DNA from: Gallionellaceae bacterium CG11_big_fil_rev_8_21_14_0_20_60_62
GTDB lineage: Bacteria > Pseudomonadota > Gammaproteobacteria > Burkholderiales > Gallionellaceae
Length of the DNA stretch: 37,218 nt
Reading direction: 5' to 3'
Assembly (NCBI GenBank): GCA_002787455.1
Contig: PCWU01000051.1
Location: 19,217-56,434, forward strand
Under the pieces are notes generated by a model. The model ran no database searches. It was given only the letters and a program-made list of their open reading frames with translations, and had not been told where the DNA came from. A program made the translations under genes and the position numbers. Below, piece after piece: positions 843 through 33,751 of this stretch; the first letter of the stretch is position 1; the number at the start of each line of letters is the position of its first letter.

Positions 843-946
843 CACCACAGAGACACAGAGACACAGAGGAATAGCCTTGCCTTCCACCCCGGGCTTCTGT
901 GGTGTGTCGGTTTTTGTCTCCTCGGTGCTTCTGTGTCTCTGTGGTG
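843..946. repeat. Inverted-repeat element with arms of tandem 8-bp CACAGAGA units
   Basis: Left arm CACCACAGAGACACAGAGACACAGAGGA (843-870) matches the reverse complement of 919-946 at 25/28; extra partial arm CTTCTGTGGTG at 894-904. Confidence 0.9.
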
Positions 947-963
947 TGTATTAGGTTTTTTTT

Positions 964-2274
964 GTGGAATCTCGAACACTTCCCGACTGGCTGACCCACC
1001 TCGAATCGCTGCATCCCAAAACGATTGCGCTCGGCTTGGAGCGCGTGGCGCAAGTCAGGCAGCGGCTCAATCTTCATCCTGATTTCCCCGTTATCGTCGT
1101 CGGCGGCACCAACGGCAAAGGCTCGGTGTGCGCGATGCTGGAAGCCATTCTGCACGCCGCCGGATACAAGGTCGGCTGTTATACCTCGCCGCATCTGCTG
1201 GATTACAACGAGCGGGTGCGAATCGCCAAACAACAGGCAAGTGATGCGGAGTTGTGTGCTTCATTCGAAAGAATTGAACAGGCGCGCGTAGGTCGGGCTT
1301 CAGCCCGACTGGATGATGTCGGGCTGAAGCCCGACCTACAGCTTACCTACTTTGAATTCGGCACGCTGGCGGCGATGCAGCTTTTTATCGAGCACAAGGT
1401 GGATGTCGTCATCCTTGAAGTGGGACTGGGCGGCAGACTGGATGCGGTGAACGTGTTCGATGCCGACGTTTCGGTGGTAACCAGCGTGGACATCGATCAC
1501 ATTGATTATCTTGGCGAGACACGCGAGCAGATCGCGTTTGAAAAGGCTGGCATCTTCCGCCGGGGGCGCGTGGCGATCTGCGCCGACAGCGATGTGCCGC
1601 AGGCGATAAGCAAACATGCACAGGAGATCGGCGCCGAATTGTGGTGCATGGCCAGTGAATTTGGTTTTAGGGCACATCAGGGGCAATGGGATTTCTTTGG
1701 CCAATCCGGTGAACGCCATGCCATGCCAGTGCCGGCTTTGCGCGGCGCGTTCCAGTTGCACAACGCGAGTGCGGCATTGGCCGCTCTGGATGCTTTGAGG
1801 GATTGTTTGCCGGTGAATATGGAAGCAGTGCGGCGGGGACTGGTTGAGGTGGAGCTTCCCGGCCGTTTCCAGTTTGTGCCGGGGCAACCGCAGTTGATTC
1901 TCGATGTGGCGCACAACCCTCATGCGGCGCGTTCGCTGGCGCAGAACCTGGCCAATCTGCCGCCGGCGAAAACGTTTGCGGTGTTCGCCATGCTCAAGGA
2001 CAAGGATGTGGCCGGGGTGGTTGCGGCGCTGGACGCGCATATTGATGTGTGGCTGGTCGCCGGGATCGATGCGCCGCGCGGCGCGACGGCGGCGGAACTG
2101 CGGCGGGTTCTGGAAAAACAGGGGGTGCGAGGCGAGATCGTGACCTGTTTGGCCATCGCGAATGCCCTGTATGAGGCCGGCAATCGCGCATGTGAAAATG
2201 ATAGAATCGCAGCCCTTGGATCATTCTATACGGTAGCGGAAGTGATGCGGCTGCGCGGTGTGCGTGGCGCTTGA
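964..2274 (+). CDS. folC: Bifunctional folylpolyglutamate synthase/dihydrofolate synthase with an in-frame REP doublet
   Basis: GTNGKGS P-loop, YTSPHL, LTYFEFGTLAA, LEVGLGGRLDAVN, DVAHNPHAA; accD-folC-dedD-cvpA-purF synteny; GTG start. Confidence 0.97.
   Translation: MESRTLPDWLTHLESLHPKTIALGLERVAQVRQRLNLHPDFPVIVVGGTNGKGSVCAMLEAILHAAGYKVGCYTSPHLLDYNERVRIAKQQASDAELCASFERIEQARVGRASARLDDVGLKPDLQLTYFEFGTLAAMQLFIEHKVDVVILEVGLGGRLDAVNVFDADVSVVTSVDIDHIDYLGETREQIAFEKAGIFRRGRVAICADSDVPQAISKHAQEIGAELWCMASEFGFRAHQGQWDFFGQSGERHAMPVPALRGAFQLHNASAALAALDALRDCLPVNMEAVRRGLVEVELPGRFQFVPGQPQLILDVAHNPHAARSLAQNLANLPPAKTFAVFAMLKDKDVAGVVAALDAHIDVWLVAGIDAPRGATAAELRRVLEKQGVRGEIVTCLAIANALYEAGNRACENDRIAALGSFYTVAEVMRLRGVRGA
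1288..1339. repeat. GTAG-type REP doublet (REPIN-like) inside folC
   Basis: GTAGGTCGGGCTTCAGCCCGAC (1288-1309), 8-bp spacer, then the perfect reverse complement GTCGGGCTGAAGCCCGACCTAC (1318-1339); each unit is itself a hairpin. Confidence 0.93.
2199..2207 (+). promoter_or_regulatory. Possible extended -10 (TG-A-TAGAAT) internal promoter for dedD-cvpA-purF
   Basis: TGATAGAAT inside the folC 3' end, ~85 bp before the dedD ATG; motif match only. Confidence 0.35.
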
Positions 2275-6275: not shown

Positions 6276-6361
6276 TTAGCCACAGAGAACACAGAGTTCA
6301 CAGAGAAAAGCGCGGACAGGTTTCTGTTTTCCTTTACGGCCTCTGTGATCTCTGTGGCTAA
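6276..6361. repeat. Inverted-repeat element with arms of tandem 9-bp CACAGAGnn units
   Basis: TTAGCCACAGAGAACACAGAG (6276-6296) matches the reverse complement of 6341-6361 at 20/21; three 9-bp units on the left arm. Confidence 0.9.
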
Positions 6362-29713: not shown

Positions 29714-32700
29714 ATGTTCCTCACCTCGATTGGCAAATCCGCGCTTTCCGCCTTCCGTCTCGACAAGCTGCGCGCCGCGCTGGACGCCGCCCGTTGCGGG
29801 GTAACTGTCGCAGAGACGCGCCATATTTATTTCATCGAACTCTCCGCCGAACTTTCCGCCAACGAGGCGGCTTTGCTGCATCGTCTGCTGAATCTGAATA
29901 GCGGCGCAGGCGAGCCGAAGAACGCGGGGCAGGCGCAGCGCCTGCTGGTCATTCCGCGCCTCGGCACGATTTCGCCGTGGTCATCCAAGGCTACCGACAT
30001 CGCCAGGCATTGCGCGCTGCCGCAGGCGACGCGCATCGAGCGTGGCGTGATGTACTACCTCGGGGCCAGGAGCGGCAAGGCGCTGAGCGCCGCCGAACAG
30101 CAGGCCGTGCTGCCGCTGCTGCACGACCGCATGACCGAATCCGCGCTCACCGACATCGCCGGCATCGAAGCCAAACTGTTCAGCCACGGCACGCCGCAAC
30201 CCTTGTCCTCGGTGGACATCCTCACGGCCGGCCGCGCCGCGCTGGAAACCGCCAACCGTGAACTCGGTCTGGCGCTGTCCGCCGACGAGATCGACTATCT
30301 GGTGGAGAACTTCACCCGGCTGCAACGCAATCCCACCGACGTCGAACTGATGATGTTCGCGCAGGCCAACTCCGAGCACTGCCGCCACAAGATATTCAAC
30401 GCCGACTGGATCATTGACGACGAGCAGCAGGCCATCTCGCTGTTCGGCATGATCCGTAACACACACAAGCTGCATCCGCAAGGCACGGTGATCGCCTATT
30501 CCGACAACTGTTCCGTGATCGAGGGGGCAGAGGTCGAGCGCTTCTATCCGCGCGCCGACGGCGGCTATGCCTACAGCCGCGAATTCACGCACACCCTGAT
30601 GAAGGTGGAGACGCACAACCACCCGACCGCCATCGCGCCGTTCGCCGGCGCAGCTACCGGCTCCGGCGGCGAGATTCGCGACGAGGGCGCCACCGGCACC
30701 GGCTCCAAACCGAAAGCGGGGCTGGCCGGTTTCTCCGTATCCAACCTGCACATCCCAGGTTTCGGGCAGCCGTGGGAAGCCGGTCCGGTCGGCAAGCCGG
30801 GCCGCATCGTTTCCGCTTTGCAGATCATGATTGACGGCCCGCTTGGCAGCGCCGCCTTCAACAACGAATTCGGCCGTCCCAATCTGGCCGGCTATTTCCG
30901 CACTTTCGAAGAGACCGTCAACGGCGAAGTGCGCGGCTATCACAAGCCCATCATGCTGGCCGGCGGTGTCGGCAACATTGCGGCAAATCACACACACAAG
31001 CACGAGCTGCCGGAAGGCGCCTTGCTGATCCAGCTCGGCGGCCCCGGCATGCTTATCGGTCTGGGCGGCGGCGCGGCATCCAGCATGGACACCGGCGCCA
31101 ACGCCGAGAACCTGGACTTCGATTCCGTCCAGCGCGGCAACCCCGAGATGGAGCGGCGCGCGCAGGAAGTCATCGACCGCTGCTGGCAACTGGGCGAGAA
31201 CAATCCCATCCTGTCCATTCATGACGTGGGCGCGGGCGGCATCTCCAACGCGCTGCCGGAGCTGGTGCACGGTGGCGGCAAGGGCGCGCGTTTCGAACTG
31301 CGCAGTGTGCCTTCCGAAGAGCGCGGCATGTCGCCGATGCAGATATGGAGCAACGAGGCGCAGGAGCGTTACGTGCTCGCCATCCCGGCGGAACGTCTGG
31401 ATGAATTCAAAGCCATGTGCGAACGCGAGCGCTGCCCCTTCGCCGTGCTGGGTCGCGCCATCAGCGAAGACCGGCTCATCGTGCACGACACCGAATTCGA
31501 CAACGATGCGGTCGATATGCCGCTGTCCGTTCTGCTCGGCAAGCCGCCCAAGATGACGCGCAAAGTGCGGCGCGAAAAAGTCGCGCTGCCGAAATTCGAT
31601 ACCGCCAACATCGTGCTGAAAGAAGCCGTTAAGCGCGTGCTGCGCTTGCCAAGCGTTGCGGACAAGACCTTCCTGATTGCTATCGGCGACCGCACCGTGG
31701 GCGGCTACACCGCACGCGACCAGATGGTCGGCCCGTGGCAGGTGCCGGTGGCCGATGTGGCCGTGACCACGATGGGTTATCACACCAACCTGGGCGAAGC
31801 CTTCGCCATCGGCGAACGCGCCCCCATCGCTGTCATCGACGGTCCTGCTTCCGGTCGCATGGCTATCGGCGAGGCGCTCACCAACATCGCCGCCGCGCGC
31901 ATCGACCGGATCGGCGACATTAAACTCTCCGCCAACTGGATGGCCGCCGCCGGCCACCACGGCGAGGATGCCGCACTGTTTGACACCGTGAAAGCGGTGG
32001 GCATGGAGTTGTGTCCGCAGCTCGGCATCAGCATCCCGGTCGGCAAAGACTCCATGAGCATGAAAACGAGCTGGGTCGAAGACGCAGCGAGTTTCGGCGG
32101 AGACTCACCTGCAAAGCAGGTTAGTCATAGCCAAAACGCCCCGGAAAGAAAAGAAGTCACCGCACCACTGTCGCTCATCGTTTCCGCCTTCGCGCCCGTG
32201 CCGGACGCCCGCAAGACGCTCACCCCGCAACTCGCCGCCGAGACCGACACCGCCGTGTTGCTGTTCGACCTCGGCTGCGGCCGCAACCGCCTCGGCGGCT
32301 CCGCGCTGGCGCAGGTGTACAAGCAGGTGGGCGACGTTGCGCCGGACGTGGATGACGCCGCCAAACTAAAAGCCTTGTTCGACCTGATCCAGCGTTTCAA
32401 CCGCGAGGGCAAGCTGCTGGCCTATCACGACCGTTCCGACGGCGGCCTATTCACCGCGCTGTGCGAGATGAGCTTTGCTTCGCACATCGGCCTCGACATC
32501 CGCCTGGACGAACTGAAGGGCGATGACCTCGCCGTGCTGTTCAACGAGGAACTCGGCGCGCTGGTGCAGGTGCGCCACGCCGATCTGGCCGAGATCTTCG
32601 TGCTGTGCGAAGAAGCGGGATTGAGCAACGTGCACGAGGTGGCGCGCCTGAACACCGGCGGCACGATCAACATCTCGCGCGGCAAAACGCAACTCTACAA

Positions 32701-33751
32701 CGAGAACGCGATCACCCTGCGCCGCCTCTGGTCCGAGACCACTTACCAGATGCAAAAGCTGCGCGACAACCCGGTCTGCGCGCAACAGGAATACGACCGC
32801 ATCCTCGACGCCAAGGACTCCGGCCTGCATGTGAAGCTGACTTACGACGTGAATGAGGACTTTTTTGTGGGTCGGGATTCACCCAAAGGGTGCGAGAACC
32901 CCTGCGGGGCATCCCGACAAGACGGCATCGGACTGAAGTCCGGCCTACACATTCAGCACTCGACATTCAGCACCGGTCTTGCCCGTCCAAAAATGGCCAT
33001 CCTGCGCGAGCAGGGGGTGAACGGCCACGTCGAGATGGCCGCCGCCTTCGATCGCGCCGGCTTCGCCACAGTCGACGTGCATATGAGCGACATCATCAGC
33101 GGCCGCGCGACACTGCAAGACTTCAAGGGTTTCGTCGCCTGTGGCGGTTTCTCCTACGGCGATGTGCTGGGGGCGGGCGAGGGCTGGGCAAAATCCATCC
33201 TGTTCAATCCGCGCGCGCGCGACGAGTTCGAAGCCTTCTTTAAGCGCAGCGACACTTTCGCGCTCGGCGTGTGCAACGGCTGCCAGATGATGAGCAACCT
33301 GCACGAGATCATCCCCGGTGCCGATAACTGGGCGCACTTCAGCCGCAACCAGTCGGAGCAGTTCGAGGCGCGCTTTGTGATGGTGGAAGTGCAGCCATCG
33401 CCTTCCATCCTGTTCGACGGCATGGCCGGTAGCCGCATGCCCATCGTTGTCGCGCACGGCGAAGGCTATGCCGATTTCGGCAACACCCAGCGCCTGCATG
33501 CCGCACAGCCCGCGGTCACGCTGCGCTATATCGATCACTACGGCAAGCCGACCACCACCTACCCGCTCAACCCCAACGGCTCGCCGCAGGGCATCACCGG
33601 ACTTACCACGCCGGATGGCCGCTTCAGCATCATGATGCCGCACCCGGAGCGCGTGTTCCGCGCCGTGCAGAACTCGTGGTATCCGAAAGAGTGGAACGAG
33701 AACGGCGCCTGGATGCGCATGTTTCTGAATGCGCGGAAGTGGGTGGGGTAA
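29714..33751 (+). CDS. purL: Phosphoribosylformylglycinamidine synthase (large PurL) with two in-frame insertions
   Basis: [44 protein letters not shown], glutaminase domain GVCNGCQ and MMPHPER. Confidence 0.98.
32091..32137. repeat. Hairpin insertion 1 in purL
   Basis: GACT-C-ACCTGC-AAA-GCAGGT-T-AGTC (32102-32126) enclosed by GTTTCGGC/GCCAAAAC (7/8). Confidence 0.65.
32867..32948. repeat. REP doublet in purL interrupted by a nested 30-bp double hairpin
   Basis: GTGGGTCGGGATTCA[30 bp]TCCCGAC, 8-bp spacer, ATCGGACTGAAGTCCGGCCTAC; removing the 30 bp restores a 52-bp element colinear with the folC copy. Confidence 0.88.

What the first reader, a model, noticed from the sequence alone, without database searches (positions are those of the whole stretch)
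32867..32948. Nested insertion in PurL: a 30-bp double hairpin inside a REP loop, frame preserved
Seen: left REP GTGGGTCGGGATTCA|TCCCGAC is split at its loop by 30 bp (32882-32911) containing CACCC-AAA-GGGTG and CCCC-TGC-GGGG, with CA on both sides like a 2-bp duplication. Removing it gives a 52-bp doublet with the same 8-bp spacer length and reading frame as the folC copy. The right arm shows a compensatory G-C to A-T change relative to folC. The insert sits just before the glutaminase domain ([11 protein letters not shown]). Inference: a very small element that targets REP hairpins, and at least two successive insertions tolerated in PurL.
Basis: partly seen in the sequence, partly recalled or inferred. 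Interest (0 to 1): 0.75.

Follow-up and report, generated by a model that had tools for sequence, protein, structure and literature searches.

The report
Thirty-base hairpin element nests in repeats
A 30-base two-hairpin DNA unit sits in frame inside a palindromic repeat inside the purine-synthesis gene purL, and copies with the same exact ends occur in dozens of different repeat sites across one bacterial family, so it is likely one of the smallest mobile DNA elements, likely choosing its landing site by base pairing and moved by an enzyme not yet found.

Summary
The nested unit is real, but its ends are 32880-32909, not 32882-32911: the CA belongs to the unit and there is no target duplication. 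It is a family: a second copy lies in this genome, its left end occurs in 104 of 317 genomes of the family, and the full pattern in 0 of 391 other genomes of the order. Read on the minus strand it is a C(GNA)G mini-hairpin, a 6-nt linker TTCTYG and a variable hairpin, inserted 3' of YR in 56 host-site classes, only about half the copies in REPs. New: linker base Y covaries with the target's last base (C-G 16, T-A 28, T-G 9, C-A 1 classes; also within genomes, p=0.002), like a guide. Empty, REP-only and other-repeat purL alleles exist: the linker is an insertion hotspot. Likely a non-autonomous single-strand (HUH-type) element; no mover or autonomous parent found. The scan noted other nested double-hairpin units on other DNA, none matching this sequence.

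The parts
29714..33751 (+). purL (large FGAM synthase), 1345 aa, open across all insertions
   Evidence: insert lies between the synthetase part and the glutaminase domain (Pfam GATase_5 from residue 1091; gap against solved PurL chains)
32867..32879 (+). 5' part of left REP (GTGG foot, stem, start of loop)
   Evidence: uninterrupted core on contig C44
32880..32909 (-). the 30-nt mobile unit (corrected ends); adds 10 codons; stop-free in all six frames
32899..32909 (-). hairpin A, conserved left end: 4-bp stem with C(GNA)G triloop (GCA here)
   Evidence: left free in the search, 25 of 30 loci (one per genome) have a GNA loop and none the inverted loop; stem pair 3:9 is T-A in 180 and C-G in 30 of 214 copies
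32893..32898 (-). linker TTCTYG; its Y (C here, at 32894) is the putative guide base for the target's last base
32880..32892 (-). hairpin B, variable right end; the unit ends exactly at its foot
   Evidence: 26 loop sequences seen, G.T mismatches outnumber A.C 44 to 7 on this strand
32910..32911 (-). target dinucleotide (TG on the minus strand) 5' of the unit; host REP sequence, not a duplication
   Evidence: YR at 50 of 56 site classes against 23% background
32910..32918 (+). 3' part of left REP
32919..32926 (+). 8-bp spacer of the REP doublet, near-identical to the spacer of REP-only purL alleles
32927..32948 (-). right REP of the doublet (degenerate)
32949..32973 (+). third layer: remnant of heptamer-type tandem repeats, also seen alone in this linker in relatives
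   Evidence: L008, L012, L013, L017 heptamers only; L002 REP plus heptamers
1288..1339 (+). uninterrupted 52-bp REP doublet in frame in folC (comparison copy)

Best explanation
The 30-bp segment is a copy of a family-wide, gene-less two-hairpin unit that sits with exact ends and no target duplication in many unrelated host sites, and it likely moves as single-stranded DNA by peel-and-paste, cut and joined in trans by an unidentified HUH (Y1-type) enzyme, with its linker likely pairing with the target's last bases. Shown: the ends, the lack of duplication, many distinct host sites, filled and empty hosts side by side, the YR target motif, the strand asymmetry, and the linker-target covariation. 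Inferred: the minus strand folds as DNA; hairpin A plus TTCT is the recognition end; linker YG pairs with the host's YR to fix the left cut; the foot of hairpin B fixes the right cut; a 30-nt circle is the intermediate. Repeats are likely over-represented as hosts because they expose single strands, tolerate insertion and then multiply the unit as a passenger. In purL it survived because 30 is a multiple of three, it has no stop codon, and the inter-domain linker tolerates extra residues; no function for the added peptide is proposed.
For: Family: 31 copies in 16 of 69 genus genomes, control 0; left end 294 matches in 104 of 317 family genomes, control 7; linker plus hairpin B 191 matches in 80 of 317, control 0. 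Exact ends: register test; two subfamilies of one host repeat are each seen filled and empty in the same genomes with no base gained or lost. Independent sites: 214 clean copies fall into 56 host-site classes (26-66 by threshold). Target: -1 is A or G in 54 of 56 classes, -2 is T or C in 52 of 56. Covariation by class majority: C-G 16, T-A 28, T-G 9, C-A 1, other 2 (Fisher p 2e-6). It holds at all five thresholds and within hairpin-B and loop-A strata (p 0.009 to 1e-5), and in the 16 of 76 genomes that carry both linker types (16:3 against 9:20, CMH p 0.002). This genome's two copies fit (C-G in purL, T-A on C24). Strand: GNA loop only on the minus strand; G.T over A.C 44:7. GCGNAGC-type mini-hairpins are unusually stable as DNA and the RNA counterpart tested is much weaker (PMC13037366, passages). 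Precedent for guides: RAYT cuts CT/CA chosen by the last bases of the tetranucleotide at the hairpin foot (PMC8266576, passages); IS608 inserts 3' of a target that pairs with a guide (PMC5934647, passages). A head-to-tail dimer joins the unit's own TG end to a left end (L404).
Against: No mover found: 0 Y1 genes in this 54%-complete genome; of 41 Y1 and 4 Y2 loci from ten high-copy relatives, only one had the unit nearby, and there it sits inside REPs; no recurring neighbour gene among 103 loci; no long element with these ends among 234 left ends (one left end, L220, lacks hairpin B and has no long ORF after it by eye). Geometry differs from both models: RAYT cuts between the two bases whereas the junction here is after YR, and the IS608 cross pairs at -3/-4 are not met (target is T-rich, linker is T-rich). 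Host classes are not fully independent and the unit is too short for a tree, so lineage could produce the covariation; the first base of hairpin B and the unit's last base also track the target. No orientation bias by GC skew (51 against 52 of 103). No excised allele in 8 laid runs, all contigs. Five copies in the REP class follow T or C instead of a purine.
Confidence: 0.55

Rival explanations
1. No dedicated enzyme: the unit is copied between hairpin repeats by replication template switching or microhomology-driven repair, using the shared YR as microhomology. The target base is then inherited from the donor flank, and linker Y tracks it only by descent.
For: The unit's own end is usually YR like the target; units ending in A follow A in 18 of 18 classes. 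Products that look like template switching exist: a palindromic doubling (L074), a doubled hairpin B (L404), loop inversions in hairpin B and copies inverted in place. No enzyme was found. An earlier scan note favoured copying errors for a similar unit (not tested by me).
Against: Ends are exact in unrelated hosts that share at most two bases; in 11 classes the unit ends in G while the host base is A, and in 12 the penultimate bases differ. Hairpin A and the linker are conserved in sequence while hairpin B is conserved in structure only. The covariation is in complementary phase and holds within strata and within genomes.
Confidence: 0.2
2. A true enzyme-driven single-strand element, but without guide pairing: two subfamilies (linker C and linker T) are moved by enzymes or in lineages that prefer G or A by protein contact.
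For: Haplotype structure is visible: with linker T, units whose hairpin B starts with T follow A in 20 of 21 classes, those starting with C follow A in 7 and G in 13. The T-rich -3/-4 preference has no partner in the linker.
Against: Both types occur in the same genomes and even the same REP family (this genome). Linker Y leaves 2 exceptions where the hairpin-B base leaves 8.
Confidence: 0.15
3. The unit moves through RNA or by an RNA-guided recombinase (IS110/bridge type, which is known to target REPs), with a 2-base core.
For: G.T bias also fits G.U pairs in RNA; IS621 and related elements insert at REPs (PMC3184786, passages); YR-like dinucleotides lie at both junctions.
Against: The core is not duplicated; a 30-bp double-stranded circle is too small to form (general knowledge); the GNA triloop is a DNA-type motif; 56 unrelated targets do not fit one programmed guide; no Rfam match at gathering score in 8 loci.
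Confidence: 0.1

Closest known systems
REP/REPIN elements with RAYT (TnpA-REP) transposases (PMC8266576, PMC3333891, PMC3733652; passages)
   Same: Gene-less hairpin DNA, strand-specific, a few bases 5' of a hairpin foot pairing with a cut dinucleotide; in-frame copies inside genes are known. The host doublet itself is such a REP, and a Y1 gene flanked by the same REP exists in G091 (L178).
   Different: No GTAG/GTGG foot; two unlike hairpins in one 30-nt unit instead of inverted REPs; junction after YR, not between C and T; constant exact ends; no cognate gene flanked by the unit.
PATEs and other hairpin-only derivatives of IS200/IS605 (PMC3119063, passages); IS608 model (PMC5934647, passages)
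   Same: No terminal inverted repeats, no target duplication, two hairpins, insertion 3' of a short motif that stays outside the element, guide-like pairing.
   Different: Shorter than the 52-bp terminal-only PATE named there; hairpins reach the very ends instead of lying sub-terminal; one central linker instead of two guides; the -3/-4 cross pairs are not met; no parent IS with these ends found.
Double-hairpin elements (DHEs) of fungal mitochondria (Paquin et al. 2000, not read; as described in PMC10085805, passages)
   Same: Short GC-rich two-hairpin units, presumed mobile, mover unknown.
   Different: Bacterial chromosome; no sequence comparison was made; a guide-target rule is not mentioned in the passages seen.
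SMR-A small mobile repeats of Haloquadratum (PMC3119063, passages) and REP-targeting IS1397/IS621 (PMC3184786, passages)
   Same: Insert preferentially into the palindromes of other mobile repeats; SMR-A makes no duplication and has no known mover.
   Different: SMR-A is about 110 bp with terminal inverted repeats; IS1397 and IS621 are full, transposase-coding elements.

Membership tests
GTAG-type REP doublet (host, 32867-32948) | GT[AG]G foot followed by a palindrome, in an inverted pair | tested here: met
   37 full REP matches in this genome
GTAG-type REP doublet (host, 32867-32948) | cognate RAYT gene flanked by the same REP | tested here: met
   in relative G091 (L178); not found in this 54%-complete genome
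REP/REPIN (the 30-nt unit) | GT[AG]G tetranucleotide at the hairpin foot | tested here: not met
   the foot of hairpin B is CTYG
REP/REPIN (the 30-nt unit) | foot bases select the cut dinucleotide by pairing | tested here: inconclusive
   covariation fits the pairing but the junction is one base off the RAYT cut and lineage is not excluded
REP/REPIN (the 30-nt unit) | copies flank their own RAYT gene | tested here: not met
   41 Y1 loci from ten genomes: unit seen in one, inside REPs; sample, not exhaustive
PATE / IS200-IS605 derivative | no terminal inverted repeats and no target duplication | tested here: met
PATE / IS200-IS605 derivative | insertion 3' of a conserved 4-5 nt target | tested here: inconclusive
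   strong YR, weaker T at -3/-4
PATE / IS200-IS605 derivative | ends shared with an autonomous tnpA/tnpB element | tested here: not met
   none among 234 left ends or 45 Y1/Y2 loci; 144 matches were unlisted and only partly fetched
PATE / IS200-IS605 derivative | orientation bias to the lagging-strand template | tested here: inconclusive
   GC-skew proxy 51 against 52; weak proxy, passenger copies included
PATE / IS200-IS605 derivative | single-strand circular intermediate made by a HUH enzyme | not testable with these tools
   needs biochemistry or small-circle sequencing; one head-to-tail dimer seen
MITE | terminal inverted repeats and target site duplication | tested here: not met
Fungal mitochondrial DHE | two adjacent hairpins with compensatory changes | tested here: met
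   resemblance of layout only
Fungal mitochondrial DHE | shared sequence or insertion motif with described DHEs | not tested
   DHE sequences were not fetched

The most novel reading that the evidence does not exclude
A self-guided 30-nucleotide single-strand transposon, close to the smallest possible: one C(GNA)G hairpin for recognition, one six-base linker whose YG pairs with and programs the target, and any closing hairpin (13 to about 30 nt seen) to set the right end. It is moved by a still unknown nuclease of this family and parasitises other selfish repeats and itself.
Probability: 0.4. Interest if true: 0.85.

Novelty: new variant of a known kind. Interest (0 to 1): 0.62.

Why it matters
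How REP-sized hairpin DNA moves in vivo is still open. This unit gives an unusually clean natural data set: exact ends, dozens of distinct targets, filled and empty sites, and one base that predicts the target base. That yields a sharp test (change linker C to T, expect G targets to switch to A) and a defined 30-nt bait for finding the enzyme. If the rule holds it is a minimal scarless, DNA-guided insertion system with a variable cargo hairpin. Separately, the PurL synthetase-glutaminase linker is shown to be a recurrent sink for at least four repeat types (15 of 30 alleles carry inserts), a simple case of selfish DNA adding protein sequence. In-frame repeats in genes are already known, so that part is ordinary.

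Tried and rejected
2-bp target duplication: rejected. Cut between Y and R (register -1): rejected because hosts rebuild only in register 0 where the bases differ. Autonomous parent: a hairpin-B half-site search hit mostly unrelated repeats and one unrelated IS-like end; left-end searches gave short units. Y1 and Y2 loci: no unit-like ends. Neighbour-gene clustering of 477 ORFs from 103 loci: only generic families in 3-4 loci. IS91-type ends (CTTG/CTCG motif, recalled, not from a call): the motif is internal, not at a junction. Hairpin targeting by energy: rebuilt sites fold better than their shuffles (-4.8 against -3.0 kcal/mol) but not better than random genome 44-mers (-5.4); 45 of 56 lie inside a predicted stem, with no control for that count. 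Repeat status by BLAST: 23 of 56 empty sites found uninterrupted, but the control was spoiled by overlapping and orthologous loci and was dropped. GC-skew orientation: no bias. AlphaFold model of the PurL C-terminal part: mean pLDDT 42, uninformative, not used. Rfam: nothing at gathering score. Viral contigs: 3 matches, one real copy in a REP, two that look like chance. RNA runs hold the insert as contigs, which does not show transcription. purL tree: REP-bearing alleles do not group, support is weak in most deep forks, so the order of REP and heptamer layers is open. Linker conservation is biased by the search patterns; only (31 of 31 with an 8-nt gap) is unbiased.

Full report
Observation. 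The sequence is as described. purL runs 29714-33751 without a stop. The insert lies between the synthetase part and the glutaminase domain, where solved PurL chains have a short linker. Removing 30 bp leaves a 52-bp REP doublet laid out like the folC copy. Contigs of four DNA runs, which may be the source of this genome, match across the insert with no difference.

The unit is a family. A second copy lies in this genome, also in a REP loop (C24:20478-20507). With the gap between the hairpins left free, 31 copies were found in 16 of 69 genus genomes, all with the same gap length, and 0 in the control. The left end gave 294 matches in 104 of 317 family genomes against 7 control matches. Linker plus right hairpin gave 191 matches in 80 of 317, control 0. 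A strict scan of GTDB contigs gave 76 loci; 72 record titles name Gallionellaceae, its genera or Gallionellales, and 4 carry broader labels. That the window belongs to this family is my inference from these hits. None of 391 genomes from other families of the order matched.

Ends. The 5' CA is nearly fixed and changes together with its stem partner (TA with TA, CC with GG), while the 3' flank varies. Rebuilt empty sites favour ends at 32880-32909 (36 of 107 found against 22; 15 against 3 among informative copies, 6 both, 34 neither). In four genomes a host repeat with two subfamilies is seen both filled and empty, each insertion exact. So there is no duplication and no loss.

Anatomy. On the minus strand the unit reads hairpin A (CCYC-GNA-GRGG), linker TTCTYG, hairpin B. 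With hairpin A left free, 25 of 30 loci (one per genome) have a GNA loop and none the inverted loop; by hand I count 132 of the 150 rows listed. Hairpin B varies in loop and stem (26 loops) and in length: of 234 left ends, 171 give 30 nt, 26 give 29, 16 give 31 and five give 46 (20 copies without a clean 12-15 nt hairpin B were left out of the 214 used below). Stem mismatches in hairpin B are G.T rather than A.C on this strand, 44 to 7 by class. That reflects either selection on the fold or single-strand deamination; both mark this strand as special.

Targets. The 214 copies fall into 56 host-site classes. By my reading about half the copies are in GTAG/GTGG REPs of several families; others are in different repeats, in the unit itself (L124, L213-L216, L404) or in unclassed sites. 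Many copies are passengers of hosts that multiplied, so classes, not copies, are the unit of count, and even classes are not fully independent. The two bases before the unit are YR in 50 of 56 classes against 23% background.

Linker-target covariation. The variable linker base predicts the target's last base: C-G 16, T-A 28, T-G 9, C-A 1, other 2. This holds at clustering thresholds giving 26 to 66 classes, within hairpin-B and loop-A strata, and among the 16 of 76 genomes with both linker types (CMH p 0.002). T-G cases may be wobble pairs or later C-to-T decay. The geometry (last two bases at a hairpin foot pairing with a dinucleotide) matches what was shown for RAYT guides (PMC8266576, passages), but RAYT cuts inside the dinucleotide and the junction here is after it. 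IS608 inserts 3' of its target like this unit, but its -3/-4 pairs (PMC5934647, passages) are not met. Descent could mimic the pattern: other bases of the unit track the target too, less well.

Mover. Not found. This genome (54% complete) has no Y1 match. Nine of ten high-copy relatives have Y1 genes, but none is bounded by the unit; in one locus it sits inside the REPs around a RAYT-like gene. Four IS91-type loci showed nothing. No neighbour gene recurs. The host REP does have a cognate Y1 gene in G091.

The purL linker. Of 30 genus loci including this one, 15 have the plain 11-12 residue linker, 4 heptamer repeats only, 3 the REP doublet without the unit, 7 other repeat families (two of these with a broken frame near the linker), and 1 (this one) REP plus unit plus heptamer remnant. 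Three metagenome contigs add REP-only alleles. One REP-plus-heptamer allele has 34 residues against 44 here. Nesting shows the unit came after the REP. REP-bearing alleles do not group on a purL tree with weak deep support, so the linker patch may have been exchanged between species or lost repeatedly. The unit also lies in frame in recG of G317 and in a 622-aa ORF of G277. In-frame REPs in genes, likely neutral in linkers, are known (PMC3733652, passages).

Literature. Nine searches returned no paper describing this unit. I read passages only of PMC3733652, PMC8266576, PMC3119063, PMC6006769, PMC10085805, PMC5934647, PMC3333891, PMC13037366 and PMC3184786, and no supplements. PMC3733652 has no main-text mention of Gallionella or Sideroxydans; its supplementary lists may bear on novelty. 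Closest in kind are PATEs (shortest named 52 bp), REP/RAYT and mitochondrial DHEs. The scan's own notes hold other nested double-hairpin units in other genomes and none like this sequence.

Verdict. That this is a real, mobile, family-specific unit is close to certain. The single-strand, guide-paired mechanism is my best reading at about 0.55. It is a new variant of hairpin-only mobile DNA and is not filed as a REP, PATE or MITE.

Noticed in passing
window 843-946 and 6276-6361: Long inverted repeats built from CACAGAG-type heptamers; the same kind of repeat hosts the unit in other genera.
   Followed up: no
window 1288-1339: A perfect 52-bp REP doublet lies in frame in folC; relatives' folC alleles were not checked.
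   Followed up: partly
L155, L217, L400, L401: A second, longer hairpin family shares the TTCTYG plus hairpin-B module but has a long left hairpin; it interrupts or replaces hairpin A, and in L217 it is itself the host. The linker plus closing hairpin may be the shared working core.
   Followed up: partly
L213-L216 (G123, G281, G321): A 46-nt variant with a long hairpin B sits upside down inside a 30-nt copy, itself inside a REP loop: three nested layers.
   Followed up: partly
L404 (G168:C324): A head-to-tail dimer of the unit and, 500 bp away, a copy with hairpin B doubled with its loop inverted.
   Followed up: partly
L210:652-2844 (G317): recG carries an in-frame insert of about 50 residues made of nested repeats including the unit.
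   Followed up: partly
L003, L004, L005, L006, L009, L010, L021: Other repeat families entered the same purL linker independently; L010 has a stop and L021 a frame break close to the linker.
   Followed up: partly
L137-L141 (G134): An IS-like end sits in the loop of a palindromic repeat in five loci, four at contig ends; family not determined.
   Followed up: no
runs X2, X7, X12, X14, X6, X17, X18 laid on window 32870-32949: A contig at depth comparable to this allele in most of these runs carries another REP-plus-unit copy with 5 differences, possibly a third copy in this organism missing from the assembly; a relative's purL with a different, shorter linker occurs in most of the same runs.
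   Followed up: no
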